64,000 nt of DNA from Actinomycetes bacterium (GTDB lineage: Bacteria; Actinomycetota; Acidimicrobiia; Spongiisociales; JAHEDJ01), in NCBI GenBank assembly GCA_024641245.1, contig JAHEDK010000002.1:167136-231135 (forward strand), in the 5' to 3' direction. Under the pieces are notes generated by a model that was not told the DNA's origin, did not search any database, and saw nothing but the letters and a program-made list of their open reading frames with translations. Within the stretch, counting starts at the first letter, position 1; each line of letters starts with the position of its first letter. This document shows, in pieces, positions 10,462 to 55,936 of this stretch. Made by a program: the position numbers and the translations under genes.

Positions 10462-10602
10462 ACGCGGAAATCCGGGTCTCGGGGACCCGTTCATAGTTCT
10501 GGTTACAGAACCCGAGTTGATTGCTTCGACGTGAAGAGGTGTTTTCAGCGTGCCGGCACTCGCAAGCCTGAGCCGTTGCCCTCCGAATCGGCGTTATCCC
10601 TT

Positions 10603-12186: not shown

Positions 12187-12264
12187 TCGAATGTCCAGTG
12201 CAGTCCTCCGCGTCGATAGCTTCTGTGTTCCTATCGGCGCGAAACCGGCGATCGTTGAGGAACT

Positions 12265-12801: not shown

Positions 12802-12873
12802 GACCCTCCAACGTACACGACCATCGCCAAAGTTCCCTATCAACCTGCGTGCGGGAGGGGTAGGATCTGACAG

Positions 12874-33988: not shown

Positions 33989-34110
33989 TCGGCGACGGCC
34001 CGGAGTCACAACTTCAAGGGCCGTTGGACCCTGTGCCGCGTTGACCTTTGGCAATACGGTGAAGGGCGGAGAGGAACAACTCAACTACATCGGGAGCCGC
34101 TGTGGCAGGA

Positions 34111-37669: not shown

Positions 37670-37811
37670 TCAATACGAAGCACTCAACACGAGGTGCGGC
37701 GTTCGGCCCGTCGCGATTCGACACTCCGTCGGGTCGGGTTGCTACTCTCCACCGCACCCCGGCGCCGAGCCGGGAGTCGTACAGTAGGGTGTCGACGACG
37801 GAGCATCTGGT

Positions 37812-39608
37812 ATGGAGAAACTTCACTTCTTCGACGAGAACATCCCCTGTCTCGCCGCCTGTCCGGTCAACACGAATGCCGGCATGTACGTTGCCGCCAT
37901 CGCAGACGGACAGGATGAACTGGCCTATCTAACCGCTCGCCTCCCCAACCCGTTCGCCTCCGTCTGCGGTCGGGTTTGTGCGGCGCCATGCGAGGACGCC
38001 TGTCGGCGCGGCGAAATCGACAAGCCCATCGCCATCCGGGCGCTCAAGCGATTCGTCACCGATCAATTCGGCGTCGAATCCGGCATGGATACCTACCGGC
38101 AGGTCGCCGCCCCTGCTCTCGAGTCGCGATCACAAAGCGTCGGGATTGTCGGAGGGGGCCCGGCCGGCCTGGCCGCCGCCCACGACCTCCGCCGCCTCGG
38201 CTACGGCGTCACGCTGTACGAAGCCACCGGTCAGCTCGGCGGCATGATGCTGCTGGGGATCCCCGAGTACCGCCTTGATCGATCCCTCCTGGCGGCGGAG
38301 ATCAAGGCCATCACCGACCTGGGCGTCGAGGTTCGGTTGAACACGAAACTCGGCGATGGCATCACGCTCGATGACCTCCGCCGGCAGCACGATGCCCTAT
38401 TCGTGGCCATCGGGGCGACCCTCGGACGCGGACTCGACCTCGAAGGCCACGACGCAGACGGGGTGTTGAAGGCGATCGAGTACCTGATCAACGCCAACCA
38501 GGGGTTCGCAACCGACGTCGGTCAGAAGGTGGTCGTAATCGGTGGCGGCGACGTGGCGATGGATGCAGCAAGGACCGCGCTACGAGCTGCAACCTACGAT
38601 GAGATCGCCCGCCGCCATGCCGAATACGACGAAGAGGACGGGCGCTCATCCATGACGGAAGCCCTCGACGTGGCTCGCACGGCTGCCCGGACTGGTGCTC
38701 AGGACATAACCATCATGTCACTCGAGGCCAAACACGAGATGCCGGCGTCGGAGTTCGAGGTCGAAGAGGCCGAGCACGAGGACATCAAGTTTGTCAACCG
38801 GCGCGGTCCCGCCCGGATACTCACCGCCGATGGCAAGGTCACCGGCATCGAGACGATCGGGGTCACGCGCGTTTTCGACGAGAACGGCCGGTTCTCCCCT
38901 GAATTCGACGATGCAGATCGGCTGACGCTGGAGGCAGACACCATCATCATGGCTATCGGCCAGGCGATCGATGTTGAGGCACTGGGAGCGAACGGCCCTG
39001 AGTTGAGTCCTCGCAAGACAATCCAAGTGGGTGAGGACAGCCTGGCGACTTCGCTTCCGATGGTATGGGCCGGCGGCGATGCAGCCAGGGGCCCGCGCAC
39101 TCTCATCGATGCGATCGCAGACGGCCGGATTGCGGCCCGTGAGATCCACGAGGCGTTTGGCGGCAGCTTCGCCGAGCAGGATACCGGAACCATGGTGCAA
39201 CTGGACCAGTTCCACCGTCTCGACGACATCTACGACCGGGTCCCCCGGGTCGCCGTGCCCACGCTGCCGACGGACCGGCGCATCGGTCTGGCAGAAGTCG
39301 AAACAGGGTTCACCGTCGAAGAGGCCAGGTGTGAGGCACAGAGGTGTCTGCGCTGCTTCGCCAACATCCTGCTCGATACCGACATTTGTGTTTTATGCGC
39401 GCTGTGCGCCGACGTCTGCCCGCTCGACCTGATTTCGCTGGTTCCCTCGGAGGACATTCACCCAGACGAGCCGGGTGGCACGGCGTTAATGTTGAACGAG
39501 CAAAGCTGCATCCGTTGCGCGCTGTGTATTGAGCGATGCCCGACAGATGCACTGTCGATGGGACTGTGGACCGGAGTGGGAGTGCCGAAATTGGGAGCAC
39601 CGGTATGA
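37812..39608 (+). CDS. GltD-like NAD(P)H-dependent FAD/iron-sulfur oxidoreductase with C-terminal 2x[4Fe-4S] ferredoxin domain
   Basis: N-terminal Cys cluster (CLAACPVNTN, CGRVCAAPCEDAC). Two dinucleotide-binding GxGxxG motifs (VGGGPAGLAAA, VIGGGDVAMDAA). C-terminal CLRCF...CVLCALCADVCP and CIRCALCIERCP. Confidence 0.8.
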   Translation: MEKLHFFDENIPCLAACPVNTNAGMYVAAIADGQDELAYLTARLPNPFASVCGRVCAAPCEDACRRGEIDKPIAIRALKRFVTDQFGVESGMDTYRQVAAPALESRSQSVGIVGGGPAGLAAAHDLRRLGYGVTLYEATGQLGGMMLLGIPEYRLDRSLLAAEIKAITDLGVEVRLNTKLGDGITLDDLRRQHDALFVAIGATLGRGLDLEGHDADGVLKAIEYLINANQGFATDVGQKVVVIGGGDVAMDAARTALRAATYDEIARRHAEYDEEDGRSSMTEALDVARTAARTGAQDITIMSLEAKHEMPASEFEVEEAEHEDIKFVNRRGPARILTADGKVTGIETIGVTRVFDENGRFSPEFDDADRLTLEADTIIMAIGQAIDVEALGANGPELSPRKTIQVGEDSLATSLPMVWAGGDAARGPRTLIDAIADGRIAAREIHEAFGGSFAEQDTGTMVQLDQFHRLDDIYDRVPRVAVPTLPTDRRIGLAEVETGFTVEEARCEAQRCLRCFANILLDTDICVLCALCADVCPLDLISLVPSEDIHPDEPGGTALMLNEQSCIRCALCIERCPTDALSMGLWTGVGVPKLGAPV

Positions 39609-40342
39609 CATTGGGCCAACGAATCCGCGAAAGCACGATAGGTCGTTCGATCTGGCGCGCCACCGACCGAACCACCGAACGCGACCAGGCGGCCGGTCAC
39701 TGGGCGAACTTCTTTCTGCACATCTACCCGGTGAAAGTGCGCAAGAAGGAGATCACGTTCCGCTATTCCTGGTATCTAGGTGTGGCGTCGGTGGTCCTGT
39801 TCGGATCGCTGATCGTTTCGGGCATCTACCTGATGTTCTTCTACGTCCCGTCGCCTGCCCAGGCCTACGGCGACATCCTCAACCTGCAAACGCGGGTCGC
39901 GTTCGGACAGTACATCCGCAACGTGCACCGCTGGTCGGCTCACCTCATGGTGCTGGTGGTGGCCGCGCACATGGCCCGGGTGTTTTATCGAGGGGCATAC
40001 AAGAAACCCCGCGAATTCAACTGGGGTATCGGCGTGATCCTCCTCGTGCTCACGCTGCTCCTTTCGTTCACCGGCTACCTGCTCCCCTGGGACCAGCTCG
40101 CCTACTGGGCGGTCACGGTCGGCACCGAGATGGCCGCCTTCGTCCCGCTGATCGGGGACACCGTCAAGGAAATGATGCTGGGTGGGCCGGTGGTTGCTTC
40201 GTCGACGCTGCTGCGGTTCTACGTTCTGCATGTCGCCGTTCTGCCCACGGCTGTCGTTCTCCTCATCACAATCCATATGTGGAGATGGCGCAAAGACAGC
40301 ATGCTCGACGCGGCGAAGGAGGGTGTTGATGTCGACGCCTAG
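39605..40342 (+). CDS. Cytochrome b6-like di-heme b subunit, module 2
   Basis: ATGA overlap with the GltD-like gene. Heme-ligand His pairs (HRWSAHLMVLVVAAH; LHVAVLPTAVVLLITIH). PWDQLAYW motif. Confidence 0.85.
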   Translation: MTLGQRIRESTIGRSIWRATDRTTERDQAAGHWANFFLHIYPVKVRKKEITFRYSWYLGVASVVLFGSLIVSGIYLMFFYVPSPAQAYGDILNLQTRVAFGQYIRNVHRWSAHLMVLVVAAHMARVFYRGAYKKPREFNWGIGVILLVLTLLLSFTGYLLPWDQLAYWAVTVGTEMAAFVPLIGDTVKEMMLGGPVVASSTLLRFYVLHVAVLPTAVVLLITIHMWRWRKDSMLDAAKEGVDVDA

Positions 40343-40865
40343 ACCAGATCAGGAAAATCCTGAGATCGTCGCCGGACAACGGGTGCTCGGGGTTGTTCCA
40401 GGCAAGCCGCCGGGCGGCGACCGCAAGGTTCTGAGCGAGCAGGAACCGGTCATGGTCTGGCCGCACCTACTCGTCCGCCACGGGGTGGCGGCGCTGGTGG
40501 TCATCGCCGTCGTTCTGGTGCTTGCCATATTCTTCGATGCCCCGCTGCGTGAGATCGCCAACCCCACGCTGACGCCCAACCCGGAAAAGGCCCCCTGGTA
40601 TTTCGCGGCGCTCCAGGAGCTGCTCTCGATGTTCCATCCGCTGGTGGCCGGTGTGCTGGTCCCGGGCGCCATCGTCCTCGGGCTCTTCGCGCTTCCGTAT
40701 GTGGATCGGACTTCGACGATCGAGCCGCGGTTCCGCAAGGTGGCGGTGGCGACGTTCACGATCTTCATGGTCGTGTGGATAGTCCTGACGGTTATCGGAT
40801 TCGCCTTCCGCGGCCCCAACTGGGGTTGGGTGTGGCCATGGCAAGAGTGGTACGGAGAGCTATGA
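40329..40865 (+). CDS. Cytochrome b subunit IV-like protein, module 2 (variant Qo motif APWY)
   Basis: Start overlaps the cyt b6 stop. Three TM helices. TPNPEKAPWYF replaces the PEWY box. Confidence 0.75.
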   Translation: MSTPRPDQENPEIVAGQRVLGVVPGKPPGGDRKVLSEQEPVMVWPHLLVRHGVAALVVIAVVLVLAIFFDAPLREIANPTLTPNPEKAPWYFAALQELLSMFHPLVAGVLVPGAIVLGLFALPYVDRTSTIEPRFRKVAVATFTIFMVVWIVLTVIGFAFRGPNWGWVWPWQEWYGEL

Positions 40866-41368
40866 GCAACGGAATCGGTCGGAGAGAATTCCTATCCCGG
40901 GCCTGGAAGTGGGGTGCCGCCCTCATCGGTGTCGCCGGCGGTTGGACCACGTGGGATATCCTGCAGCCCCGGGTCACCGGAGGCTTTGGTGGCGTCATCA
41001 AGACCAAGGCAGCCGACACAGTGCCGGACACCAACGTCGAATCCATCCGGGCCGCCAGAACCTACCTGACGAAGATCGACGGGCAGGTTGTAGCCCTCTC
41101 CGAGAAATGCCCGCACCTCGGTTGCCGGGTGCCGTGGTGTGATTCGTCCGGACAGTTCGAGTGCCCGTGCCACGGCTCGGTCTTCAACCGGGCGGGCGAG
41201 TACCGCGCAGGGCCCGCTCCCCGCGGAATGGACCGCTACGAGTTCGAGACGATCGACGGCATCGTCTACGTAGACACCGGAGCACCGGTATCCGGGCCGG
41301 CAATCGGTGTGGAGACCCTCAACGAACCCGTACGAGGGCCATCGTGTGAGGACAGCTCCCATGGGTGA
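40862..41368 (+). CDS. Rieske [2Fe-2S] protein, module 2, Tat-targeted
   Basis: ATGA overlap. RREFLSRA signal. CPHLGC ... CPCHGSVF boxes. Confidence 0.85.
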   Translation: MSNGIGRREFLSRAWKWGAALIGVAGGWTTWDILQPRVTGGFGGVIKTKAADTVPDTNVESIRAARTYLTKIDGQVVALSEKCPHLGCRVPWCDSSGQFECPCHGSVFNRAGEYRAGPAPRGMDRYEFETIDGIVYVDTGAPVSGPAIGVETLNEPVRGPSCEDSSHG

Positions 41369-41825
41369 GCGTCCGGTTGACCAGGAACTCGAACAGTCGA
41401 CCGTCAGATGGATGCAGGCCGGACTGGCCCTGATGGTCGTCCTGGTGCTGGCGTTTCCCGCCTACCGGCTCCTCGAACCTACCAACCGCGAAGAAGCACG
41501 CGACCTCTTGACGGAAGAACTCGCCGTCCAGGGCGAAGAGCTATTCGCGGGGCAGTGCGCCTCCTGTCACGGCGAAAAGGGGCTGAATGGACCGATCGGT
41601 CCGTCGCTCAACTCGAAGCAGTTCCTGGAGGCGGCCACCGACAGCCAGATCATCAGCCTCGTCTCGGTCGGCGTCCCGGGCTCTCAGATGGGCGCCTACT
41701 CGATCGACTTCGGAGGCCCACTGACACTCGAGCAAATCACCGGCATCGCAACCTATCTGCGCTCGCTGGAGAAAGACGCCCCGGACAATCCTGACTGGCG
41801 AGCAGTAGTAACGCCGGGGAGCTAG
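41361..41825 (+). CDS. Membrane-anchored monoheme c-type cytochrome (c6/c553-like)
   Basis: Start overlaps the Rieske stop. N-terminal TM helix. Single CASCHG heme site. Confidence 0.7.
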   Translation: MGERPVDQELEQSTVRWMQAGLALMVVLVLAFPAYRLLEPTNREEARDLLTEELAVQGEELFAGQCASCHGEKGLNGPIGPSLNSKQFLEAATDSQIISLVSVGVPGSQMGAYSIDFGGPLTLEQITGIATYLRSLEKDAPDNPDWRAVVTPGS

Positions 41826-41879
41826 TCGCGGGTTGCTAGTCGCGGGTTGCTAGCTCACAGGCGACCCTCTCGCGCGTTT

Positions 41880-41901
41880 CTCCCCCGCACCGGCGGGGGA
41901 G
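41880..41901. terminator. Possible bidirectional terminator hairpin (CTCCCCCGC-ACCG-GCGGGGGAG) between convergent cytochrome c and ccmE genes
   Basis: Perfect 9-bp GC stem. Preceded by a 14-bp direct repeat (TAGTCGCGGGTTGC x2 at 41823-41850). No U-tract. Confidence 0.3.
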
Positions 41902-41948
41902 ATGCCGAGGTCCACGAGGCAGAGGGGGTTACTCGCGACCGCGACCCG

Positions 41949-42371
41949 CTACGCGTCCGTCGGGACCTCGTAGGGGTGCCCTTCGTCCTCGGGCGCTTGG
42001 TACTGCTCGTCGTGTTTGACGACCAGCTGGTCGCTGCGGAAGACGTCACCGTCCCAGGCGCCTTCGACGATCGCACCGACGCCTTCGCGGAACAGTTCCG
42101 GTGGGGCTCCCTGGTGCACGATGTGCACTTCATGGGCACCGTCGGACACGGTGAACTCGACTCCATCCGAGGTGGCAACCAGTGTCCCGACTTCGACCTG
42201 ACCGCCGAGCCGGAACCGCTCACCATCGGGGAACTGAGCCCTCTGCTCGATAGCTTCGTTGGGGGTCAAGTAGTAGACGAGGTTCTCGCCGAGGCTGAGA
42301 AACACCATCCATCCGATGATCACAACGATCGCTCCGATGGCGGGAAGTACGAACCAGCGATATCGAGTCAT
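41949..42371 (-). CDS. ccmE: Cytochrome c maturation heme chaperone CcmE
   Basis: N-terminal anchor, OB-fold, C-terminal VVKHDEQY heme-binding motif. Confidence 0.85.
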   Translation of the reverse strand: MTRYRWFVLPAIGAIVVIIGWMVFLSLGENLVYYLTPNEAIEQRAQFPDGERFRLGGQVEVGTLVATSDGVEFTVSDGAHEVHIVHQGAPPELFREGVGAIVEGAWDGDVFRSDQLVVKHDEQYQAPEDEGHPYEVPTDA

Positions 42372-42372
42372 G

Positions 42373-42486
42373 TCAGCCCTCCACCCGGCGGCGGACGCTG
42401 CGCAGGCGCACAGTCAAGAACACCGCATATCCGATCATGAAGCCGTACACCACCGTGTAGGCAAAAACGACCCATCCGTTAGACAT
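42373..42486 (-). CDS. ccmD: Heme exporter protein CcmD (37 aa, single TM)
   Basis: Not in the ORF track. Translation is MSNGWVVFAYTVVYGFMIGYAVFLTVRLRSVRRRVEG. Its start overlaps the ccmC end, and its stop abuts the ccmE start. Confidence 0.55.
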   Translation of the reverse strand: MSNGWVVFAYTVVYGFMIGYAVFLTVRLRSVRRRVEG

Positions 42487-43204
42487 CTCGCACCTTCTCG
42501 AGGTTGGGAGCCGTGATGGCGGCACCGGCGGGCGTGGCATCAGCGGCGGCGGATTGTTCTTCGAGTTGTTCCTCGCCCCTGGCGATGGCCGTCTTGACGC
42601 TCATGAAGGCGAGATAGACCACGGTGAACGCTCCAACGTTGCTGAGCAACGCCAGCAGGATCTCTCCATCGATCGGAGAATCCGGTCGCACCACCGTGAT
42701 CCCCTGGTGCAACGTGCGAACGATGATCACCGAAACGTAGGACAGCGGCACGAGGAAGAAGGCCACGATGCCCAGCACCGCGGATCTCGTCGCCCGCATG
42801 GCCGGGTCGGGAATGCTGCGGCGCAAAGCCAGGTAACCGAGGTAGACGAAGAACATGAGGGCCGTCGTCATCATGCGGGCATCGCCCCAGTCCCAGAACG
42901 TCCCCCACACCGGGTAACCCCAGATCATGCCGGTCATGAGCGCCAGCGCGGTGAAGAACACGCCGACCGAGACGCTGGACTCGGCGATTCGATCGTAAAC
43001 GGGCTTGCGTCTCGCCAGCCACAGGATCGAGGCGGCGAACGTCACAAGAAACGAGAGGTAGGCAAGCCACGCCGAAGGTACGTGCACGTACATGATGCGG
43101 GTGTAGTCGCCCTGCAACTGATCGAGCGGCGCCTGGCCACCGAAGTAGAAGCCGACCAGCACCGCTGCCAGTGCGATCAACCCGAGTATTCGATGTCTAT
43201 TCAA
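42479..43204 (-). CDS. ccmC: Heme exporter protein CcmC
   Basis: WWD domain (GYPVWGTFWDWGD) and conserved His. Confidence 0.85.
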   Translation of the reverse strand: MNRHRILGLIALAAVLVGFYFGGQAPLDQLQGDYTRIMYVHVPSAWLAYLSFLVTFAASILWLARRKPVYDRIAESSVSVGVFFTALALMTGMIWGYPVWGTFWDWGDARMMTTALMFFVYLGYLALRRSIPDPAMRATRSAVLGIVAFFLVPLSYVSVIIVRTLHQGITVVRPDSPIDGEILLALLSNVGAFTVVYLAFMSVKTAIARGEEQLEEQSAAADATPAGAAITAPNLEKVRDV

Positions 43205-43881
43205 CGTGAGGCCTCCTCGAGGAATCGGGCGGTCAGCACACCTACCACTGCCAGCCCGAGTACCACGGCAAGTAGCAGAAGGATGGGAGTGAGGATACTT
43301 GACTTCTGAGCCAACGCTTCATACGTCTGTGATGCTCCGACGAGCAGCGGCAACGCCAGCGGTGCCACCAGCAGCGGTGCCAGCGTGTTACGAGAGCGCA
43401 GACCGGCCGTGATACCGGAGGCGAGCGTACCGATGAGCGCCAGGCCGACGGCCATCAGCAGAAGGACCAAAATCAGGATCGCCCACCCCTCTACCGGGTC
43501 CGGGTTGTAGAGGATGATCGTGGCGGGCGCAAGCACTCCTTCGAACACGAGCAACAGGAGGACGCTCGCCACAACCCTGCCCGCGAACTGCGCGGCCGGG
43601 TCCACGCCGAGCAACACCATCATCTCGCGATTGGCCGAACTCTCTGTGGCCGACTGGCGGAACGTGACCAGCATCCCGAACAGCAGGGTCACGACCCAGA
43701 ACATGCCCGGTCCGATCGAGGCGATGAGTGGACGGTCGGTCCCGATCGCCAGCGGGATGAGCAGCAGCGCAACCGCTCCAAACGGGATCGTGATGTTCAG
43801 GACCTCGCCGGTCCGTCCTTCGACCCGCAGATCCTTCAACCCGATCTCATATGCCTGGCCCCAGAACGACGGACCGCTCAT
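43201..43881 (-). CDS. ccmB: Heme exporter permease CcmB
   Basis: Six-TM ABC-2-type permease in a ccm context. Overlaps ccmC and ccmA by 4 nt each. Confidence 0.8.
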   Translation of the reverse strand: MSGPSFWGQAYEIGLKDLRVEGRTGEVLNITIPFGAVALLLIPLAIGTDRPLIASIGPGMFWVVTLLFGMLVTFRQSATESSANREMMVLLGVDPAAQFAGRVVASVLLLLVFEGVLAPATIILYNPDPVEGWAILILVLLLMAVGLALIGTLASGITAGLRSRNTLAPLLVAPLALPLLVGASQTYEALAQKSSILTPILLLLAVVLGLAVVGVLTARFLEEASR

Positions 43882-44534
43882 GATGAGCTCCCCGCGATCA
43901 CGATCCCACCCGTCAGCTCATAGGTCGATTGCACCAGCGGCAGCATGCGATCGAGTTCGTGGGACACGAAGACGGCGGCGCCACCACGGGAACGGACGTT
44001 CTCGACAACTGCGTCGACGAGTTGTCCGGCCTCTCGATCTAGTCCGGCGTGGGCCTCATCGAGCAGCAGTAGGTCGGGCCTGGTGAGAATCACCCTGGCG
44101 AACTCAACTCGCCGCTGCATACCATGCGACGACTGCTCCGCCCGCCGGTGCTTCGCCCCACCCAGCCCGACCACGTCGAGCATCTCATCTACCCGCTCGT
44201 CAGTGTGGCCCGACAACCGGGCGACGAAGGCGAGATTCTCACGCAGCGTCAACTGCGGGTAGAGCGCCGGTTGATGGCCGATCAGCGCGATCCGGCGCCG
44301 GATCGCAAACGCCGTCGCTTCGCCCATCTCGGTGCCGAACACCGCCACCGAGCCCTCCGTCGGTCGCAGCAACGTGGCCAGCACCCGGAGCAGCGTCGAC
44401 TTTCCCGAACCATTCGGCCCAACGATCCCGGCTGCCTCCCCGGACGGTACCGCCAGCTCCACGCCCTTCAATACCGGCACCCGGCCGTATCGAACGGCGA
44501 CGCCGTGCAGCTGCACTGTGGGAGGTGTGGACAT
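43878..44534 (-). CDS. ccmA: Heme exporter ATP-binding protein CcmA
   Basis: Walker A (GPNGSGKST), ABC signature (SHGMQRR), Walker B (LLLLDEA). Start at MSTPPTVQL. Confidence 0.8.
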   Translation of the reverse strand: MSTPPTVQLHGVAVRYGRVPVLKGVELAVPSGEAAGIVGPNGSGKSTLLRVLATLLRPTEGSVAVFGTEMGEATAFAIRRRIALIGHQPALYPQLTLRENLAFVARLSGHTDERVDEMLDVVGLGGAKHRRAEQSSHGMQRRVEFARVILTRPDLLLLDEAHAGLDREAGQLVDAVVENVRSRGGAAVFVSHELDRMLPLVQSTYELTGGIVIAGSSS

Positions 44535-44804
44535 GACAGACGAGTGTACGCACGCAGCTTCGGGCGCCGAAACGCGACCCCGGATAAACACCACCCGTTC
44601 TCTCCCTTTCGCCACCTTTTCAGGGTTTTATGGCGGGTTTCAACCCAGGCAGGGCCCAAGTGCCCCAGGGCGCGAGGACTTTGCGCTGTTGGTGTGTTTC
44701 CGATATACCCGTATCCTCTGCAATGAGAAACGGGGGACCGACCCTGAATCGCCGCCGGAACGGCTCATTCACACGGTGATCCCCATGGAGGAAGGCACAG
44801 CAAA

Positions 44805-46844
44805 ATGAACGCGACCCTCGGGTATCTCTCGATCCTGGCCGCAGTGGTGGGAGCGCTCGGTATCACCGTGCGGGGTTTCATCGCGATGCGTGATCCGGAG
44901 CGGGCGAACAAAGGGTATCTGGGGTTGCCCGTCATACTGTTCGTGTCCGGAGCCGTCGGCGCAATGTTCTTCCTGGAACTCGGGCTTCTCACCGACGACT
45001 TCTCGATCAAGTACATCGCCAACAACTCCTCGACCACCACCCCGTTTCTCTTCAAGGTCGCCTCTGGATGGGCATCGCTGGAGGGATCGATCGTTTTGTG
45101 GGGTCTGGTCCTGGCCGGCTTCACATTCGCCGTATACGCACGGTTCTTCAGAAGCGAAAGCGGCGACCGGCTCGCAGCAGGGGCTCTGGCGATCATGGGG
45201 CTCATCTCTCTTTACTTCTTCGGGCTAATGGCCACAATCTCCGACCCATTCGCTCGCTGCGTGCAAACGTTCAGCGACGGTGTCGGTTGTGTGACCGGCG
45301 AGAACGCGATCCTCGCCAACGTGATCTCCTCCCCGATCGAAGGGCGCGGCGCCAACGCACTGCTCCAGAACCATTGGCTCATGGCCCTGCATCCACCAAC
45401 GCTCTACGTCGGCTATGTCGGGCTCAGCGTCCCCTTTGCGTTTGCCATCTCGGCGCTCCTCCTCAAAACCACCGGGGCGGCCTGGCTGACCCGGACCCGC
45501 AACTGGACGGTGTTCGCCTGGATGTTCCTCACTGCCGGCATTGTTCTCGGTGGGCTCTGGTCGTATGAGGTGCTCGGCTGGGGCGGCTACTGGGCATGGG
45601 ACCCGGTTGAGAACGCCTCCTTCATGCCGTGGCTGGTCGCGACTGCCTTCTTGCACTCGTCTGTCGTGCAGGCGAGGCGCGGGATGCTGCAGTCGTGGAA
45701 CTTCGTCCTCGTCATCACGACCTTCGCGCTCACGATTCTCGGCACCTTCTTGACCCGCTCCGGCGTAATCGTTTCGGTTCACAGCTTCTCGCAGTCCGCC
45801 ATCGGGCCTGCCCTGTTGATCTTCCTGGTGGTCGTGCTGCTGGGATCGCTCGGGCTCTTCGCGTCAAGGGCTCACACCATCGCCTCTTCTCCCCGGCTCG
45901 ATTCACTCAGCAGCCGGGAAGGGGTGTTCTTGTTCAACAACCTTCTGCTCACCGTGTTCGCGTTCATGGTGCTGACAGGGACGCTCTACCCGCTCTTCGT
46001 TGAGGCGTTCTCCGACTCGACGGTGGGCGTCGGTCGTCCGTTCTTCGATCGCATGGCGATCCCGTTGTCCTTCCTGTTGCTGCTGGCGATGGGCATCGGA
46101 CCGGTCTCGCCCTACCGGGCGGCGAGCGCCCGCGTCGTGTGGGAGCGGATTCGCTGGCCCGTCCGGGTTGCCCTCGGCGCCGCCGCGCTGGCCGTCGTGT
46201 TCGGCTATCGGAACTCGTTCCTGCTGCTCGGTGTTCTGGCCGCCGTGTTCGTCATGGGCGTGATCATCCGCAACCTCTACGACGCCGCCCGGACCAGGGC
46301 AGACAAACTCGGTATCGGACGGAGACAGGCCGCCGCCCGGATCATGCGCGGCGACCCGCACTATTGGGGTGGCCAGATCTCCCACCTGGGCGTTGCGATA
46401 CTGGCACTGGGCATCGCCTTCTCAGCCAACCTGTCGGAGACCGCCACGGTGACCATCGACGCCGGAGATACGGTCAACTTCGCCGGCTTCGAGGTGACCT
46501 ACGAACAGGAGTTCAGCCGCCAGGAACCGGGCCGGTTCGTCACCGGAGCAGACATCACGGTGACCCGGGACGGGTCGGTCGTCGGTACGTACCAGCCACG
46601 GCTGAATCAGTACGGCAACACGCGGGAATCGATCGCCACCCCAGAGGTCGACACCATGTTCTCAGGCGACCTGTACCTCTCGCTCCGCAGCATCGATCCT
46701 TCATCCGTGACCCTCGAGGTCTATTGGTTCCCGTTCATCTGGCTCATCTGGGTTGGAGGCTTCCTGGCGGCCGCCGCCGGGGTCTGGGGATTCGCGGTCA
46801 AGAAGCCCGAACGTTCGGTTGCACGGGACGACACGCGTGTCTGA
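44805..46844 (+). CDS. ccmF: Cytochrome c-type biogenesis heme lyase CcmF
   Basis: About 15 TM helices, WWD domain (WGGYWAWDPVEN), conserved periplasmic His. Confidence 0.9.
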   Translation: MNATLGYLSILAAVVGALGITVRGFIAMRDPERANKGYLGLPVILFVSGAVGAMFFLELGLLTDDFSIKYIANNSSTTTPFLFKVASGWASLEGSIVLWGLVLAGFTFAVYARFFRSESGDRLAAGALAIMGLISLYFFGLMATISDPFARCVQTFSDGVGCVTGENAILANVISSPIEGRGANALLQNHWLMALHPPTLYVGYVGLSVPFAFAISALLLKTTGAAWLTRTRNWTVFAWMFLTAGIVLGGLWSYEVLGWGGYWAWDPVENASFMPWLVATAFLHSSVVQARRGMLQSWNFVLVITTFALTILGTFLTRSGVIVSVHSFSQSAIGPALLIFLVVVLLGSLGLFASRAHTIASSPRLDSLSSREGVFLFNNLLLTVFAFMVLTGTLYPLFVEAFSDSTVGVGRPFFDRMAIPLSFLLLLAMGIGPVSPYRAASARVVWERIRWPVRVALGAAALAVVFGYRNSFLLLGVLAAVFVMGVIIRNLYDAARTRADKLGIGRRQAAARIMRGDPHYWGGQISHLGVAILALGIAFSANLSETATVTIDAGDTVNFAGFEVTYEQEFSRQEPGRFVTGADITVTRDGSVVGTYQPRLNQYGNTRESIATPEVDTMFSGDLYLSLRSIDPSSVTLEVYWFPFIWLIWVGGFLAAAAGVWGFAVKKPERSVARDDTRV

Positions 46845-47250
46845 TTCGATTCGCAAGATCGCGGCGGCGGTGGTGACTATCGGCCTGGCGGTTGTCGTCG
46901 TAATCGGCCTCATCCAGGGCGACCGAACCGATGAAGATCGCGCCCGGTCCATCGGCTCCAGAGTGAAGTGTCCCGTTTGCCAGGGCGTAGCCATTGCCGA
47001 TTCTCCTTCGGAAACTGCCAGAGCGATGATGGACGTCGTCGAAGAGCGAATCGCAGACGGGTGGTCGGACAGACAGATCATCGACTACTTCGCGGAGCGC
47101 TACACCGACAGCATCGTCATCGACCCGCCCTTCAGCGGGAATACGCTGCTCGTCTGGCTGCTGCCGATCCTGGCAGTAGTCGCAGGCTTCTTCATGATCT
47201 TCTCCCGGCGCAAGACGCCGGTGCCAAAACCCGATGAGGTGAAACAGTGA
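46837..47250 (+). CDS. ccmH: Cytochrome c-type biogenesis protein CcmH
   Basis: GTG overlaps the ccmF stop (GTGTCTGA). CPVCQG motif, then a TM anchor. Confidence 0.75.
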   Translation: MSDSIRKIAAAVVTIGLAVVVVIGLIQGDRTDEDRARSIGSRVKCPVCQGVAIADSPSETARAMMDVVEERIADGWSDRQIIDYFAERYTDSIVIDPPFSGNTLLVWLLPILAVVAGFFMIFSRRKTPVPKPDEVKQ

Positions 47251-48080
47251 GCAACTTCAACCAGGAGTCATACGATCGGGCGGTCGCCCGCAAGGAACTG
47301 GCCTTGACCGATCTCGAAGAGCTGGCCCAGCAGGTGGACGACGGTGAGATCGACGCGCCCACCGCGGCAGGACTCCGGAGCGGCTACGAGGCTGAACTCG
47401 GCGCGGCCGAAGCCGAACTGGCCAGACTCGGTCCACCGCCCACTCCCAAGAAGTCGCCCGGTCAAGCGTCGACCAAACGTGCGCCGAGCGAGAACGGACG
47501 GCCGGCCCGGAAGTCGAGCGACTTGAATACTCGTCTGCTGGTCGGCGCCGGCATTCTCATCGTCGCCCTCGTCGTGATTCTCATCTCGGTCCAGAATTCG
47601 GCGCAGCCGGATCCGGCCGCGATGGGCACCCAGGTGACGACGGCAAGCGGCGAGGACCCCTGCGCGGAGCTGGCCGACGCGTTGACCAGTCACTCCGACA
47701 ACGGCTTTCGTCTCGCACTGGCCGACTGCTACGCAGACGTCGGAAACGCCATGTCGGCGATCGAGCACTACCGGGCCGTCGCCGATGCCGAAGGTGCCGC
47801 CGACGGCGAGGTCGCACGGGCAAACGTGGGACTCGGCTTCCTCAACCTTCAAATCGGTGAGCTCGCCAAGGCCGCCGACTACATGCGCGTGGCGCTCGAG
47901 CGCGACGCCGCCAACGTCGAAGCTCAATACTTCCTGGGCATGATGCTCGTCTACGACCTCGGCGATCCGGCCGCAGGAGCCCCATATCTCGAGTCGGTAC
48001 TCGCAACTCCCGACCTGCCGGAGACGGTGATCCTCGAAATCCAGGCAGCGCTCGATGTCGCGGCGGGCGAGGGCTCATGA
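47247..48080 (+). CDS. CcmI/CycH-like TPR-containing cytochrome c biogenesis accessory protein
   Basis: ATGA-type overlap with ccmH. N-terminal coiled region, a TM helix, C-terminal TPR-like helices. Confidence 0.45.
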   Translation: MSNFNQESYDRAVARKELALTDLEELAQQVDDGEIDAPTAAGLRSGYEAELGAAEAELARLGPPPTPKKSPGQASTKRAPSENGRPARKSSDLNTRLLVGAGILIVALVVILISVQNSAQPDPAAMGTQVTTASGEDPCAELADALTSHSDNGFRLALADCYADVGNAMSAIEHYRAVADAEGAADGEVARANVGLGFLNLQIGELAKAADYMRVALERDAANVEAQYFLGMMLVYDLGDPAAGAPYLESVLATPDLPETVILEIQAALDVAAGEGS

Positions 48081-48685
48081 CCAACACGGACCTCGCCGTC
48101 GAGCCGACCCCGGAAGCACCGCAACGCAACCTCAAACTGTGGATAACGACCGGCCTGGCGGCGGTGGCCTTCATCGCGCTCGCCCTCGTGTTCAACAGCC
48201 GGTTTGGCGTTGACCCCCGGGTCGTCGAATCCCCGCTCATCGGGCAACCCGCCCCGAACCTCGAACTCGAGGTTCTCGAGCAGGACGCCATCTCTGGCCC
48301 CATGGCAATGTCGGAATTTCGCGGCAGCGTGGTCGTGGTCAACTTCTTCGCCTCTTGGTGCATCCCCTCCTGTCGCGATGAGCACCCCCATCTCACCGCG
48401 GCCGCCGCCGACTACGCCGACCGCGGCGTCCGGTTCGTTGGAATAGCCACCAGCGACACACCCGAAGACACACGCGGGTTCCTCGACGCGCTCGGGTGGG
48501 GAACCAACTACACCTACCTCAACGATCCCGATGCCAGGGCAGGAGTCGAGTTCGGCACATTCGGAGTTCCCGAAACGTTCGTGATCGACCGGGAGGGGCT
48601 CGTCACGCACAAGTTCACGGGGCCGGTCACATACGATGAACTGGTCGTCGAGTTGGAGAAGGCGTTGACCGAGACGGGTTCATGA
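48077..48685 (+). CDS. ccmG: Thiol:disulfide interchange protein CcmG/DsbE (TlpA-like thioredoxin), unusual CxxxC (WCIPSC) active site
   Basis: Membrane anchor plus thioredoxin fold. The active-site DNA reads TGG TGC ATC CCC TCC TGT. Confidence 0.75.
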   Translation: MTNTDLAVEPTPEAPQRNLKLWITTGLAAVAFIALALVFNSRFGVDPRVVESPLIGQPAPNLELEVLEQDAISGPMAMSEFRGSVVVVNFFASWCIPSCRDEHPHLTAAAADYADRGVRFVGIATSDTPEDTRGFLDALGWGTNYTYLNDPDARAGVEFGTFGVPETFVIDREGLVTHKFTGPVTYDELVVELEKALTETGS

Positions 48686-48794
48686 CGGCGTGCCCGGGAC
48701 AAATGGCCCCACCGTCGAGGCACTAGGCTCCTATGCGCCGCCGGAAGGTCGGGCGAACATTGGTCCGGCGTAGGATCCTGCAGGGGAGACAGGG

Positions 48795-49484
48795 ATGCAG
48801 AGAACAAACGAGCTGACACAAGGCGCGCGGCGGCTGGCCTGGTTGACACTTTTGACGCTCGCATGGTTGTTGTGGATGAGTCAGGCGGCCGCCCACGCCC
48901 AGGAACTCCCGGTACGGGATGATCCGTTCTGGAAGACGGACACCTGCCTCGGCTGCCATCAGCAGTCGGACCTGTCGGTGACGCTGCCATCCAACGAGAC
49001 GCTGCGCCTCGCCGTGTATAGAGGCGCGTACGAAGATTCGGTGCATGGTCGAACAGGAGTGGCCTGCCGCAATTGCCATCTCGACATCACGGGGTATCCG
49101 CACCCTGATCTCACCGCCGGAAGCCTGGCCGAGTTCTCAGAACAGCAGGCCAGTTCTTGCGAGATGTGTCACCGTGACCACTACGGCAAAGTGGCGGATG
49201 AGCTGCATGAGGAGTCCGGTGGGTTGCTGTGCTTCGAGTGTCATGATCCGCACACCACCGGCACCGGCTCCGTCTCGGCAGAAGTGCAAGCCTCCTGCAA
49301 CGCCTGCCACTCCGAGGGTATCGCCATTCCTGTCGAGGGGATTCATGCCGCGCCCGAGGTACCTGTCGCGGAGACCACAAGCGGCGTTACAATCCTGCTC
49401 ATCCTCGGCGGAATCTTCGTCGGTTTCGTCGTCCTCGTCTGGCTGGCGACGGTGGCTTGGCGTGTCGTGCGCGACCGAAGCTGA
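48795..49484 (+). CDS. Pentaheme c-type cytochrome with signal peptide and C-terminal TM anchor
   Basis: CLGCH, CRNCH, CEMCH, CFECH, CNACH. C-terminal hydrophobic helix (ILLILGGIFVGFVVLVWLATVAW). Confidence 0.8.
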   Translation: MQRTNELTQGARRLAWLTLLTLAWLLWMSQAAAHAQELPVRDDPFWKTDTCLGCHQQSDLSVTLPSNETLRLAVYRGAYEDSVHGRTGVACRNCHLDITGYPHPDLTAGSLAEFSEQQASSCEMCHRDHYGKVADELHEESGGLLCFECHDPHTTGTGSVSAEVQASCNACHSEGIAIPVEGIHAAPEVPVAETTSGVTILLILGGIFVGFVVLVWLATVAWRVVRDRS

Positions 49485-49625
49485 TCGGGCCCGTTTCCGC
49501 AGGTTAGCTTGTAGCAATTCCCAATCTTGTGCGCCCTTTCACATGGGTCGAATGACCCTACGCGATCTGCGCGCGGATCCGTCATCATGTCGGTACACGA
49601 GTCGAGTAGCTCCCGGGGAGGAAGC

Positions 49626-51698
49626 ATGAGTCGATTTCGACACACACGCTTGGTTGTGCTTGTCGCCCTGCTGATGGTCTTAGCGGCCTGCACGAGCAGC
49701 GCCGACGACACCACCACTACGGGAGCGGAAGGGTCAACGCCCACGACAGCTCCACCGGTCGTCGAGCCGGCGGAATCCGAGCTCGTGGTTCCGTTCCTAG
49801 CGGCCTGGGTCGGTTCTGGACACAACGACGCGACTGCTGAAGCCTTCGTGCACTGGAATGAGGACGACCCCCAGGTCATTCCGACCAGTTGCGCGAAGTG
49901 CCACAGCACCCCCGGTCACCTCGATTTCCTCGGAGCCGACGGCAGCCCGTTCGGCAGCGTTGAAGCCGACGCCCCCATCGGGACCACGATCCAATGCGAA
50001 GCGTGCCACAACGATGTCACGATCTCCCTGGACAGCGTCGTGATGCCATCGGGTCTCGAACTCACCGGCCTCGGCGACGAATCCCGTTGCATGAACTGCC
50101 ACCAGGGCAGGGAGTCCAAGATCAGCGTGGACGCATCGATTACCGAAGCGGGCGTCGAAGAGGACACCGTCTCCGAGGATCTGGGTTTCCGGAACATCCA
50201 CTACTTCGCGGCTGCCGCCACCAAATACGGTACCGAAGCCAAGGGTGGCTATGAGTACGAGGGCAAGACGTACGATGCGTTCTTCGTCCACGTCGAGGGA
50301 TACTCGACCTGTATTCAGTGCCATGATCCGCACACGCTGGAACTGAAGATCGCCGAATGCTCGACATGCCACACCGGTGTCGCCACGGTTGAGGATCTCC
50401 GAGATGTCCGTATGCCGGGATCACTCGTCGACTTCGACGGAGACGGGAATCTCGAAGAGGGCATCTACTACGAACTCGAGGGCGTGCGGGGACTCTTGCT
50501 CCAGGCCATTCAGGCGTATGCCTCCGAGGTGGCGGGAACCGGCATCACCTACGATGCCAACGCCTACCCGTACTTCTTCGATGAGGCCGGCAAGGGCTTT
50601 GGCGCGTGGACCCCGCGTCTGCTCAAAGCGGCGTACAACTATCAGGTGTCCCTCAAGGACCCGGGAGCATTCGCGCACGGTGGCAAGTACATCCTCGAGT
50701 TGATGTACGACTCGATCGAGAACCTCAACGAAGCCATCTCGTCGCCCATCGACATGACGGCGATGCACCGAATCGACCACGGGCACTTCGCCGGGTCCGA
50801 GGAAGCCTTCCGGCACTGGGACGAGGATGGCGCCGTGCCGGCTTCGTGCTCACGGTGCCACTCGGCTGGAGGCGTGCCGCTGTATCTGCAGGAAGGCGTG
50901 ACGATAACCCAGCCAACTTCCAACGGGTTCAACTGCTCGACGTGCCACAACAGCACGAGCGAGTGGACCCGGTATGAGGTCCTCGATGTGACCTTCCCGA
51001 GCGGTGCGACTATCGACAGCGGCGACCAGAACGCCAACCTTTGCATGACCTGTCACCAGGGCCGTGAATCCGGCGCAAGCGTCGACCGGCGGATCGGAGA
51101 CACCGGGGCGGATACCGTCAGCGACACACTTGGCTTCATCAACGTGCACTACCTGCCGGCGGGCGCCACGCTCTTCGGCAGCGAGGCAGCGGGTGGCTAC
51201 CAGTACGCCGGGCAGACCTATGCCGGAGCCAACGATCACCCCATCGCCACGTGCACGGGTTGCCACAGCGCCCACACACTACAGGTTGAGGTTGAGGCCT
51301 GCGGGGGTTGCCATCAGGGGACGAACTCTGAAGAAGACCTGCAGGACATCCGCATCACCGCCGGCGACTTCGATGGTGACGGCGACGAGGCCGAGGGCAT
51401 CGCCGGAGAGGTCGAGACCATGCGCGAAGCCCTGCTGGCGGCGATGCAGGCGTATGCGGACGCCACGGACGGCGTGAGCCCGATCGTGTACGACGCCCAC
51501 GCCTATCCGTACTTCTTCAACGACGCCGGTGAGAGCTATTCGACCTGGACGCCGCGTCTGCTGAGGGCCGCCTACAACTACCAGTACGCAACGAAGGACC
51601 CTGGTGCGTTCGCCCACAACCCGGCCTACGTGCTCGAGTTGTTGTATGACTCGCTGGCGGACATCGGCGCCGACGTGACGGGGCTGATCAGGCCGTAG
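49626..51698 (+). CDS. Decaheme c-type cytochrome lipoprotein with internal pentaheme duplication
   Basis: GGGAGGAAGC SD before the ATG. Lipobox LAAC. 10 CxxCH. Repeated blocks (NIHYFAAAATKYGTEAKGGYEYEGKTY / NVHYLPAGATLFGSEAAGGYQYAGQTY; AYPYFFDEAG...TPRLLKAAYNYQ occurs twice). Confidence 0.8.
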   Translation: MSRFRHTRLVVLVALLMVLAACTSSADDTTTTGAEGSTPTTAPPVVEPAESELVVPFLAAWVGSGHNDATAEAFVHWNEDDPQVIPTSCAKCHSTPGHLDFLGADGSPFGSVEADAPIGTTIQCEACHNDVTISLDSVVMPSGLELTGLGDESRCMNCHQGRESKISVDASITEAGVEEDTVSEDLGFRNIHYFAAAATKYGTEAKGGYEYEGKTYDAFFVHVEGYSTCIQCHDPHTLELKIAECSTCHTGVATVEDLRDVRMPGSLVDFDGDGNLEEGIYYELEGVRGLLLQAIQAYASEVAGTGITYDANAYPYFFDEAGKGFGAWTPRLLKAAYNYQVSLKDPGAFAHGGKYILELMYDSIENLNEAISSPIDMTAMHRIDHGHFAGSEEAFRHWDEDGAVPASCSRCHSAGGVPLYLQEGVTITQPTSNGFNCSTCHNSTSEWTRYEVLDVTFPSGATIDSGDQNANLCMTCHQGRESGASVDRRIGDTGADTVSDTLGFINVHYLPAGATLFGSEAAGGYQYAGQTYAGANDHPIATCTGCHSAHTLQVEVEACGGCHQGTNSEEDLQDIRITAGDFDGDGDEAEGIAGEVETMREALLAAMQAYADATDGVSPIVYDAHAYPYFFNDAGESYSTWTPRLLRAAYNYQYATKDPGAFAHNPAYVLELLYDSLADIGADVTGLIRP

Positions 51699-52720: not shown

Positions 52721-52753
52721 CAAGGTTGGGTGTGACAAATCCCGAACCCAGTG

Positions 52754-52872
52754 AACTTGCGTCAGAAACGGGCGCCGGCCGCCCCAAACTGACGCAAGAA
52801 AGGGATAGGGGCGCCACCTTCTCGTTCTTGCGTCAGTGTTCCGAGCAACGGGCCCAGAAGTGACGCAAGAAT
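52754..52872. repeat. Two tandem REP-like palindromic units (arms at 52754-65/52789-801 and 52823-36/52859-72)
   Basis: Four copies of the TTGCGTCAG/CTGACGCAA core in alternating orientation, upstream of the DUF559 gene. Confidence 0.5.
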
Positions 52873-52939
52873 GAGGAGAGACAGAGAAGTGGGGAGCCTT
52901 TCGGCTCCCCACTTCGGGTGTTCGTTAAGCGACTCTTGT

Positions 52940-55752: not shown

Positions 55753-55936
55753 TGACAGACCCGACCTCCATCACCCGGCGAATGCCATTGGGCCCTACAG
55801 GACACAATTCGACCGCGGGTACCGTCGCGTTAGGACCCGCGGGTGCTGTCAGGAACCGCGGATTGGGCCACATGGGAGAGAGGCGAGGGCCCGCAATGGT
55901 TTGTGAATGCCGTGAGTGGTCGAGAGGGGGCCCACG

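What the first reader, a model, noticed from the sequence alone, without database searches (positions are those of the whole stretch)
41949..48685. Complete System I (Ccm) cytochrome c maturation locus in an actinobacterial-type genome, as divergent ccmABCDE / ccmF-H-I-like-G operons
Seen: all System I components including the tiny ccmD (42373-42486, not in the ORF track), with WWD domains in CcmC and CcmF, the CcmE heme-binding motif, and CcmH CPVCQ. Established knowledge: Actinobacteria and most Gram-positives normally use System II (CcsBA/ResBC). System I is typical of proteobacteria and some deltaproteobacteria-like and archaeal lineages. Its presence, immediately between the bc supercluster and the multiheme island, suggests the whole respiratory island may have been acquired laterally. 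It may also provide the capacity to load the multiheme cytochromes listed above.
Basis: partly seen in the sequence, partly recalled or inferred. Interest (0 to 1): 0.6.

Follow-up and report, generated by a model that had tools for sequence, protein, structure and literature searches.

The report
Ordinary cytochrome c maturation locus, Acidimicrobiia
This is a complete, normal-looking System I (Ccm) machine for attaching haem to c-type cytochromes in an Acidimicrobiia genome; such loci are common in that class and look inherited rather than recently imported, so the locus is real but not very surprising.

Summary
Window 41949-48685 encodes ccmE-D-C-B-A on the minus strand and ccmF-H-(TPR/ccmI-like)-G on the plus strand. 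The known catalytic residues are present in CcmA, C, E, F and H.

The genome is Acidimicrobiia, but System I is not exotic there. Of the best 80 CcmF loci among species-representative genomes, 59 carry Actinomycetota labels, four of them cultured Actinomycetes. The window's CcmF sits in a clade made only of Actinomycetota (100/100 bootstraps). CcmF and the housekeeping enzyme NadE lose identity in the same tiers (98/97, about 80, about 66%). Tetranucleotide and codon usage are uniform across the window. No sign of recent lateral acquisition of ccm was found.

The divergent layout is a derived inversion. Relatives at 66-67% CcmF identity and 20 other loci have one colinear ccmABCDEFHIG operon.

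Two side results stand out. CcmG has a conserved one-residue insertion in its active site (WCIPSC, CxxxC instead of CxxC), which is rare. The neighbouring decahaem cytochrome, unlike ccm, has 62-65% identical homologues labelled Chloroflexota.

Whether System II is also present could not be tested.

The parts
41949..42371 (-). ccmE, membrane-anchored haem chaperone (140 aa), histidine type: K-H120-D-E-Q-Y124
   Evidence: PF03100 2.6e-25. It aligns to E. coli CcmE (8ce8_E, 4e-15) with the haem-binding His and the Tyr conserved.
42373..42486 (-). ccmD-like small membrane protein (37 aa): MSNGWVVFAYTVVYGFMIGYAVFLTVRLRSVRRRVEG
   Evidence: No Pfam or PDB hit. Assigned from its conserved position, size and pattern (W-x-V-x-x-[GA]-Y-x-x-x-Y-G, then an R/K-rich tail) in related loci. 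Gene callers call a 37-aa gene here in L081-L083 and L086. It overlaps ccmC by 8 nt.
42479..43204 (-). ccmC (241 aa): H41, WWD motif W100-GTFWDWGDAR-110 (one extra residue relative to E. coli), H166
   Evidence: PF01578 8.8e-26 and TIGR01191 9.8e-43. Alignment to E. coli CcmC 7f02_C, 2e-21.
43201..43881 (-). ccmB, ABC permease (226 aa)
   Evidence: PF03379 3.7e-26 and TIGR01190 8.9e-15. 4-nt overlaps with ccmA and ccmC.
43878..44615 (-). ccmA, ABC ATPase (245 aa): Walker A 66-73, signature SHGMQR 163, Walker B LLLDE 183
   Evidence: TIGR01189 143.4 bits, above the 131.6 cut-off. Motifs.
44616..44804 (.). 189-bp divergent intergenic region between ccmA and ccmF, created by the inversion. It holds a block of about 50 nt (about 44645-44695) conserved in the 79-82% relatives.
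   Evidence: Alignment with L082 and L085. No sigma-70 consensus match, so promoter function is inferred only.
44805..46844 (+). ccmF, haem lyase (679 aa): WWD 259-270; His196, His284, His326, His527
   Evidence: PF16327 1.4e-66, PF01578 5.1e-32 and TIGR00353 1.1e-124. Thermus thermophilus CcmF 6zmq_A 3.5e-106 over residues 5-660. These histidines are invariant across 12 homologues.
46837..47250 (+). ccmH (137 aa from GTG 46837): signal anchor, RVK-C45-PV-C48-Q, C-terminal transmembrane helix
   Evidence: PF03918 4.7e-28. PDB 2kw0 3.4e-10 and 2hl7 4.3e-08. The start is set from gene calls of 135-137 aa with an 8-nt overlap in relatives.
47247..48080 (+). ccmI-like membrane-anchored TPR protein (277 aa)
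   Evidence: Only sub-threshold TPR hits (TPR_16 4.1e-4). A homologous gene lies between ccmH and ccmG in type-1 operons.
48077..48685 (+). ccmG/dsbE-type thioredoxin-fold protein (202 aa) with a non-canonical active site, W94-C95-I-P-S-C99 (48356-48373), and the GVPETF fingerprint
   Evidence: Redoxin/AhpC-TSA and TIGR00385 1e-26 (93.6 bits, below the 123.15 cut-off). Best PDB hit is CycY 1kng, 1.1e-25, with a one-residue gap at the CxxC. Motif survey.
48795..51698 (+). Immediately downstream client genes: a pentahaem (48795-49484) and a decahaem (49527-51698) cytochrome c
   Evidence: Pfam multihaem families. CXXCH counts of 5 and 10. The same two genes follow ccmG in L082-L085.
41307..41825 (+). 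Upstream client: monohaem cytochrome c at the end of a cyt b / subunit IV / Rieske cluster, convergent with ccmE
   Evidence: PF13442 and PF00034. One CXXCH. Same arrangement in L082 and L083.

Best explanation
This is a functional, canonical (histidine-type) System I cytochrome c maturation pathway of an Acidimicrobiia bacterium. It was inherited within that lineage and is split into two divergently transcribed, translationally coupled operons. By homology with E. coli and Thermus, the steps are as follows. CcmA2-B-C-D presents haem at the outer face of the membrane, using CcmC H41, H166 and the WWD motif. The complex loads haem covalently onto CcmE His120 and releases holo-CcmE on ATP hydrolysis. 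CcmF, with CcmH and the TPR protein, takes the haem and ligates it to the reduced CXXCH of apocytochromes. CcmG and CcmH keep those cysteines reduced, with electrons from a CcdA/DsbD-type transporter encoded elsewhere. The clients are the cytochromes encoded on both sides, with 68 CXXCH sites. The divergent layout arose by inversion of the ccmABCDE module in the window's genus-level clade. What is shown here: gene identities, catalytic residues, conservation, phylogenetic placement and compositional homogeneity. What is inferred: activity, client range, promoter location and electron supply.
For: Family and motif evidence for every component. Gene overlaps of 4 or 8 nt within each operon.

Lineage evidence:
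- More than 100 CcmF clusters at 56-83% identity, many named Acidimicrobiia. A member more than 90% identical is already annotated as MDF1596105.1, 'heme lyase CcmF/NrfE family subunit [Acidimicrobiia bacterium]'.
- 59 of the best 80 CcmF loci among species representatives carry Actinomycetota labels.
- The window lies in an Actinomycetota-only clade with 100/100 bootstrap support. The nearest non-actinobacterial CcmF is at most 43% identical.
- NadE from the 0-34 kb part shows the same identity tiers, and its 97% match is on a 94,273-bp contig, the same length as the contig carrying the 98% CcmF match.
- Composition and codon usage are homogeneous.

Inversion: there is a colinear ccmABCDEFHIG in 20 type-1 loci and in the 66-67% relatives L081 and L086. 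The divergent layout occurs only in the relatives at 79% identity or more, and in L019.
Against: No experiment was done. The tree is neighbour-joining on the best 80 of more than 600 hits, with no species-tree reconciliation, and the taxon labels are the submitters' own. Actinobacterial CcmFs form two separate clades that are not sisters in the midpoint-rooted tree, so at least one ancient transfer or deep paralogy is possible. CcmG departs from the defining CxxC. No CcdA/DsbD is in the window. The ccmD and ccmI assignments rest on position and architecture, not on family models. The presence of a System II elsewhere in the genome is untested.
Confidence: 0.85

Rival explanations
1. One reading: the ccm locus, together with the bc clusters and the multihaem island, is a laterally acquired respiratory island in a lineage that otherwise uses System II.
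For: Model Actinomycetes use System II (PMC9145763). The decahaem cytochrome next to ccm has 62-65% identical homologues labelled Chloroflexota, in different gene contexts and with a transposase nearby. An AbiEi-like gene interrupts the multihaem island.
Against: Composition and codon usage are indistinguishable from the 0-34 kb part. CcmF is nested in an Actinomycetota-only clade. CcmF and NadE show the same identity tiers. ccm operons occur in many Acidimicrobiia with no adjacent multihaem genes. No non-actinobacterial CcmF exceeds 43% identity.
Confidence: 0.05
2. System I reached Actinomycetota by one or more ancient horizontal transfers of the whole pathway and was then inherited vertically. 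On this view the locus is 'foreign' only on a very deep time scale.
For: There are two distinct actinobacterial clades with different gene orders: type 1 is F-H-I-G, type 2 is F-G-H. Type 2 groups nearer Deinococcales, Chloroflexota, Gemmatimonadota and Myxococcota. Whole-pathway transfer of ccm has been proposed in the literature (my recollection of Goldman & Kranz 1998, not read here). Distribution in the class Actinomycetes is patchy: Tersicoccus, Amycolatopsis, Pseudonocardia and Haloechinothrix.
Against: The tree is unrooted apart from the midpoint, and sampling was limited to the nearest 80 loci. Deep paralogy or loss in most Actinomycetes explains the pattern equally well.
Confidence: 0.4
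3. ccmF-H-I-G is a dedicated NrfEFG-type lyase for unusual haem motifs rather than the general lyase.
For: The NCBIfam hits to CcmF and CcmH include NrfE and NrfF models.
Against: All of these hits are below the curated cut-offs. The best is the generic CcmF/NrfE subfamily model. Only one non-standard motif (of CXXXCH, CXXXXCH or CXXCK type) was counted in the neighbouring cytochromes, against 68 CXXCH. This is the only lyase seen, and it is operon-linked to ccmABCDE in relatives.
Confidence: 0.04

Closest known systems
System I (CcmABCDEFGH/I) of E. coli, Rhodobacter capsulatus and other Proteobacteria
   Same: The same nine components. CcmE is of the HxxxY type. WWD motifs and the histidine ligands are present in CcmC and CcmF. 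CcmH has the (L)RCxxCQ-type motif, and CcmH and the TPR protein are separate, as in Rhodobacter.
   Different: The host is an actinobacterium and presumably has a single membrane. The gene order is F-H-I-G and the locus is split into two divergent operons. CcmD is only 37 aa and matches no family model. CcmC has one extra residue in its WWD motif. CcmG has CxxxC.
Thermus thermophilus CcmF (PDB 6ZMQ) and System I of Deinococcus-Thermus
   Same: The best solved relative of CcmF (3.5e-106, near full length), with the WWD motif and the histidine positions aligned.
   Different: Deinococcales CcmF is only about 41% identical and lies outside the window's clade. Its operon order is F-G-H with no TPR gene.
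System I* (archaea, Desulfovibrio): CcmE with CxxxY, no CcmH
   Same: A CcmABCEF core.
   Different: The window has the histidine-type CcmE (H120) and a CcmH, so it is not System I* (definition from PMC3601427).
System II (ResB/ResC or CcsB/CcsA plus CcdA and ResA) of model Actinomycetes and Bacillota
   Same: The same end product. CcmC and CcmF share the Cytochrom_C_asm/WWD domain with CcsA.
   Different: No ResB, CcsA or CcdA gene is in the window. Whether the genome has one elsewhere is unknown.
Sco/SenC copper chaperones (thioredoxin fold with CxxxC)
   Same: This is the thioredoxin-fold group that the fold atlas illustrates as having the CxxxC active site (PMC2757866). The window's CcmG shares that cysteine spacing.
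   Different: There is no Sco family hit. The window protein matches DsbE, CycY and ResA and keeps the GVPETF fingerprint.

Membership tests
System I (Ccm) | CcmA ABC ATPase of the haem-exporter type | tested here: met
   TIGR01189 143.4 bits against a 131.6 cut-off. Walker A, signature and Walker B motifs are present.
System I (Ccm) | CcmB and CcmC permeases, with CcmC carrying a WWD motif and two haem-ligand histidines | tested here: met
   PF03379 3.7e-26. CcmC aligns to 7f02_C with H41, the WWD motif (one-residue insertion) and H166.
System I (Ccm) | CcmD small membrane subunit | tested here: inconclusive
   No Pfam or PDB match. A conserved 34-45 aa gene with a transmembrane helix and basic tail lies between ccmC and ccmE in related loci.
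System I (Ccm) | CcmE with the haem-binding HxxxY | tested here: met
   K-H120-DEQ-Y124 aligned to E. coli KHDENY.
System I (Ccm) | CcmF with a WWD motif, four conserved histidines and the CcmF_C domain | tested here: met
   PF16327 and PF01578. WGGYWAWDPVEN at 259-270. H196, H284, H326 and H527 are invariant in alignment A1.
System I (Ccm) | CcmH with a CxxC in the RCxxCQ context | tested here: met
   VK-C45-PV-C48-Q aligned to PDB 2kw0 and 2hl7.
CcmG/DsbE | WCxxC active site | tested here: not met
   The window has W-C-I-P-S-C. There is a one-residue gap against CycY, E. coli and Pseudomonas CcmG. 71 of 75 related loci and 139 of 150 representatives have CxxC.
CcmG/DsbE | Membrane-anchored thioredoxin fold with the GVxGxPETF fingerprint and an acidic residue after the active site, encoded in a ccm operon | tested here: met
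   FGTFGVPETFVID and CRDEHP are present. TIGR00385 1e-26, though at 93.6 bits it is below the 123.15 cut-off. It is the last gene of ccmFHIG.
CcmI/CycH | Membrane-anchored TPR protein that works with CcmF and CcmH | tested here: inconclusive
   Only sub-threshold TPR hits. There is one predicted transmembrane helix. Its position between ccmH and ccmG is conserved in type-1 operons.
System I (Ccm) | Produces holocytochrome c in vivo | not testable with these tools
   Requires expression or complementation experiments.
Laterally acquired genomic island | Composition or codon usage that deviates from the host, or a phylogeny nested in another phylum | tested here: not met
   Tetranucleotide r = 0.957 between halves. 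The ccm segment scores 0.906 against 0.925 +/- 0.025 for all segments of that size. Codon-usage (RSCU) r = 0.977 against a null of 0.964 +/- 0.010. The clade contains only Actinomycetota, with 100/100 bootstraps.
System II (ResBC/CcsBA) | ResB/CcsB and CcsA genes | tested here: not met
   None among the window's ORFs scanned with Pfam.

The most novel reading that the evidence does not exclude
In the window's genus-level clade, the apocytochrome thioreductase CcmG has fixed a one-residue insertion that turns the defining CxxC into CxxxC (C-I-P-[S/A/N]-C). That spacing is otherwise typical of Sco copper chaperones. The same change recurs independently in a ccm operon of a Chloroflexota genome. 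It could therefore be a functional variant with an altered redox potential, client range or metal binding, in lineages that mature very haem-rich cytochromes. More broadly, Actinomycetota would hold two old, separate System I lineages, so the rule that Gram-positives use System II fails for the class Acidimicrobiia.
Probability: 0.45. Interest if true: 0.45.

Novelty: new member of a known kind. Interest (0 to 1): 0.25.

Why it matters
The result corrects an over-generalised rule. System I cytochrome c maturation is widespread in Acidimicrobiia and occurs in some cultured Actinomycetes, so finding it there is not evidence of gene transfer. It also shows that in one Acidimicrobiia subclade the ccm operon has become the hub of a cytochrome-rich respiratory neighbourhood, possibly for extracellular electron transfer. 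Finally, it flags a rare CxxxC form of CcmG that could be tested biochemically. None of this changes how System I is understood to work.

Tried and rejected
- Rfam (gathering threshold) and a tRNA scan of the whole window found nothing.
- The sigma-70 promoter and terminator scan of 41700-48900 gave no promoter match, and terminator-like sites were at or below the shuffle expectation. This is uninformative for a high-GC actinobacterium.
- A search for inverted repeats at the ends of the inverted ccmABCDE block found none at the junctions.
- CcmD against the PDB (E up to 10) and Pfam gave no hits.
- A single-sequence AlphaFold2 model of CcmG was too poor to use (mean pLDDT 52), so no fold search was run.
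- Literature searches for System I or ccm in Acidimicrobiia found no dedicated treatment. The only relevant item is a note that Actinospongicola halichondriae has 'CcmABC' read as a haem exporter.
- Attempts to fetch the source contig through exact-protein look-ups of P0271 and P0391 failed.
- One Pfam call failed on a bad frame.
- The NrfEFG reading and the System I* reading were considered and rejected (see the rival explanations and closest known systems).
Full report
**1. What is there**

ORF listing and family scans confirm nine genes.
- Minus strand: ccmE 41949-42371, ccmD 42373-42486, ccmC 42479-43204, ccmB 43201-43881, ccmA 43878-44615.
- Plus strand: ccmF 44805-46844, ccmH (best start GTG 46837, ending 47250), a membrane-anchored TPR protein (ccmI-like) 47247-48080, and ccmG 48077-48685.

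E-values range from 1e-25 to 1e-125, so chance is excluded. Neighbouring genes overlap by 4 or 8 nt within each block. This indicates two translationally coupled operons diverging from a 189-bp spacer.

Alignments to solved structures show the catalytic residues in place.
- CcmC: H41, a WWD motif and H166, against E. coli 7f02_C.
- CcmE: H120 and Y124, against 8ce8_E.
- CcmF: the WWD motif and four conserved histidines, against Thermus 6zmq_A at 3.5e-106.
- CcmH: C45-PV-C48, against 2kw0 and 2hl7.

ccmD has no model hit. It is still a conserved 34-45 aa gene with one transmembrane helix and a basic tail, found at the same position in dozens of related loci, and gene callers call it at 37 aa in relatives.

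**2. Context**

Upstream are two Rieske/cytochrome b clusters, one of them with a subunit IV fused to a cytochrome c domain carrying eight CXXCH motifs, followed by a monohaem cytochrome c. Downstream are seven multihaem cytochromes. Together they hold 68 CXXCH motifs. No ResB, CcsA or CcdA gene is in the window.

**3. Whose genome**

CcmF has a 98% match on a 94,273-bp JGI contig. It also has more than 100 clusters at 56-83% identity, many named 'Acidimicrobiia bacterium'. The window's own CcmF is on an NCBI contig of 231,876 bp. A cluster mate more than 90% identical is already annotated as MDF1596105.1, 'heme lyase CcmF/NrfE family subunit [Acidimicrobiia bacterium]'.

The housekeeping NAD synthase from the other half of the window (15112-16821) gives matching tiers. 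It has 100% identity on a 231,876-bp contig, 97% on a 94,273-bp contig (the same lengths as the CcmF contigs), then 94%, 78-83% and 64-69%, again with Acidimicrobiia names. CcmF decays in the same way: 98%, 79-83%, 64-68%.

**4. Is System I unusual here?**

A scan of one genome per species (GTDB) with a CcmF alignment hit more than 600 places. Of the best 80, 59 carry Actinomycetota labels.
- Most are Acidimicrobiia, including Ilumatobacteraceae, Iamia, Microthrixaceae, Acidimicrobiaceae and Poriferisodalaceae.
- Four are cultured or named Actinomycetes: Tersicoccus phoenicis, Haloechinothrix sp. LS1_15, Amycolatopsis ultiminotia and Pseudonocardia sp. 73-21.

tblastn of all window Ccm proteins against these loci shows two operon types.
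- Type 1 (CcmF 47-61% identical) has ccmA-B-C-(D)-E-F-H-TPR-G.
- Type 2 (39-44% identical) has ccmABCE-F-G-H and no TPR gene.

In a neighbour-joining tree of 82 CcmF sequences, type 1 forms a clade made only of Actinomycetota that contains the window (100/100 bootstraps). The actinobacterial type-2 sequences form a second such clade (100/100). Gemmatimonadota, Deinococcales, Limnocylindria, Myxococcota and Acidobacteriota lie outside both. The window groups with L082 and L081 (83/100), and then with L019 and L001 (76/100). No non-actinobacterial CcmF exceeds 43% identity.

**5. Composition**

- GC content is flat at about 0.63.
- Tetranucleotide usage correlates at r = 0.957 between 0-34 kb and 34-64 kb.
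- The ccm segment scores 0.906, against 0.925 +/- 0.025 for all segments of that size.
- Codon usage of the ccm genes correlates at 0.977 with the 0-34 kb genes. The null from random gene subsets is 0.964 +/- 0.010.

**6. The divergent layout is derived**

Twenty type-1 loci have one colinear operon, and so do the 66-67% relatives L081 and L086 (on 308-kb and 241-kb contigs). In L081 and L086 a Rieske/cyt b/multi-c cluster diverges from ccmA, and multihaem cytochromes follow ccmG. The relatives at 79-82% (L082-L085) share the window's inverted ccmABCDE and the same flanking cytochromes.

L019 (58% identical) also has a divergent layout, although L081 is closer to the window in the tree. The break between the haem-delivery module and the haem-ligation module has therefore probably occurred more than once. 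In L008 (Microthrixaceae) the two modules are separated altogether. No inverted repeats mark the junctions.

**7. Link to multihaem cytochromes**

ORFs with four or more CXXCH motifs lie next to ccm only in the window's subclade (the window, L081-L086, L019 and L002), in L008, and in a few Gemmatimonadota. They are absent from the other type-1 loci. ccm is therefore older and more widespread than the cytochrome neighbourhood around it.

The decahaem protein at 49527-51698 has a broad plateau of 60-70% identical homologues. At 62-65% identity, these include proteins labelled Ardenticatenaceae (on a 517-kb contig, in an NrfD/FeS context with a transposase nearby), Anaerolineales and Chloroflexota. 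Chloroflexota CcmF, by contrast, is only about 41% identical. If any part of the 'island' has moved between phyla it is the multihaem genes, not ccm, and the homogeneous composition says this did not happen recently.

**8. An oddity**

CcmG reads W-C-I-P-S-C.
- Against CycY (1kng) and against the E. coli and Pseudomonas CcmG structures, this is a one-residue insertion inside the CxxC.
- Independent assemblies at 94-98% identity, and the relatives at 79-82% CcmF identity, read WCIPAC. One truncated representative reads WCIPNC.
- The 66-67% relatives read WCIPC or WCFPC.

The insertion is thus real and fixed, and it arose on the same branch as the inversion. Only 4 of 75 related loci carry CxxxC: L082-L084 and a Limnocylindria ccmF-G-H operon with YCIPSC. 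Among the best 150 cluster representatives, only 5 do.

The thioredoxin-fold atlas illustrates the CxxxC active site with Sco1 (PMC2757866). The window protein has no Sco hit, and it keeps the CcmG fingerprint GVPETF. NCBI names the 94% relative only 'redoxin domain-containing protein'. This fits the protein scoring below the DsbE cut-off.

**9. Verdict**

The locus is a genuine, complete and ordinary System I pathway. Its presence in Acidimicrobiia is common, and it is already annotated in public records. The inference of lateral acquisition is not supported for ccm.

Open points are whether a System II coexists, whether System I entered Actinomycetota anciently once or twice, and what the CxxxC form of CcmG does.

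Noticed in passing
window 48356-48373 (CcmG residues 94-99): The CcmG active site is W-C-I-P-S-C (CxxxC), a one-residue insertion in the canonical CxxC. It is fixed in all relatives at 79% CcmF identity or more (WCIPAC, WCIPNC) and absent at 66-67% (WCIPC, WCFPC). It recurs in a Limnocylindria ccm operon (L077, YCIPSC) and in 4 other cluster representatives (WCYPAC, WCFPAC).
   Followed up: partly
window 49527-51698: This decahaem cytochrome has 62-65% identical homologues labelled Chloroflexota (Ardenticatenaceae on a 517-kb contig, Anaerolineales) and 52% in Candidatus Abyssubacteria. That is far closer than CcmF is across the same phyla, which suggests the multihaem gene family moves horizontally.
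   Followed up: partly
window about 44645-44695: A block of about 50 nt (CAGGCAGGGCCCAAGTGCCCCAG...GCG.GG.CTTTGCGC) in the ccmA/ccmF divergent spacer is conserved in the 79-82% relatives L082 and L085, while the rest of the spacer drifts. It may be a regulatory site.
   Followed up: partly
window 42776-42808 (CcmC residues about 100-110): The CcmC WWD motif reads WGTFWDWGDAR, with one extra residue (G) relative to E. coli WGTWWVW-DAR.
   Followed up: no
window 51797-52912 (-): An AbiEi-antitoxin-like / REase_MTES_1575 gene sits inside the multihaem cytochrome island, on the opposite strand to the preceding cytochrome genes. It looks like a small inserted element.
   Followed up: no
window 34102-41825: There are two separate Rieske/cytochrome b clusters. 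One has its subunit IV fused to a cytochrome c domain with 8 CXXCH motifs (about 35267-37669). They are separated by a GltD-like FAD/FeS oxidoreductase (37812-39608). The fused cluster is also present next to ccm in L081 and L086.
   Followed up: partly
window 55916-56362: An Rrf2-family (iron-sulfur or iron-responsive) regulator is embedded among the multihaem cytochrome genes.
   Followed up: no
L010, L011, L016, L017 (about 7300-13900 in each): Cultured or named Actinomycetes (Haloechinothrix sp. LS1_15, Tersicoccus phoenicis, Amycolatopsis ultiminotia, Pseudonocardia sp. 73-21) carry complete colinear type-1 ccm operons. Their CcmFs form a 100/100 bootstrap clade. Whether they also keep System II was not checked.
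   Followed up: no
L008 10001-13900: A Microthrixaceae genome has ccmF-H-G but no ccmABCE within 10 kb upstream, so the two Ccm modules are unlinked there.
   Followed up: no
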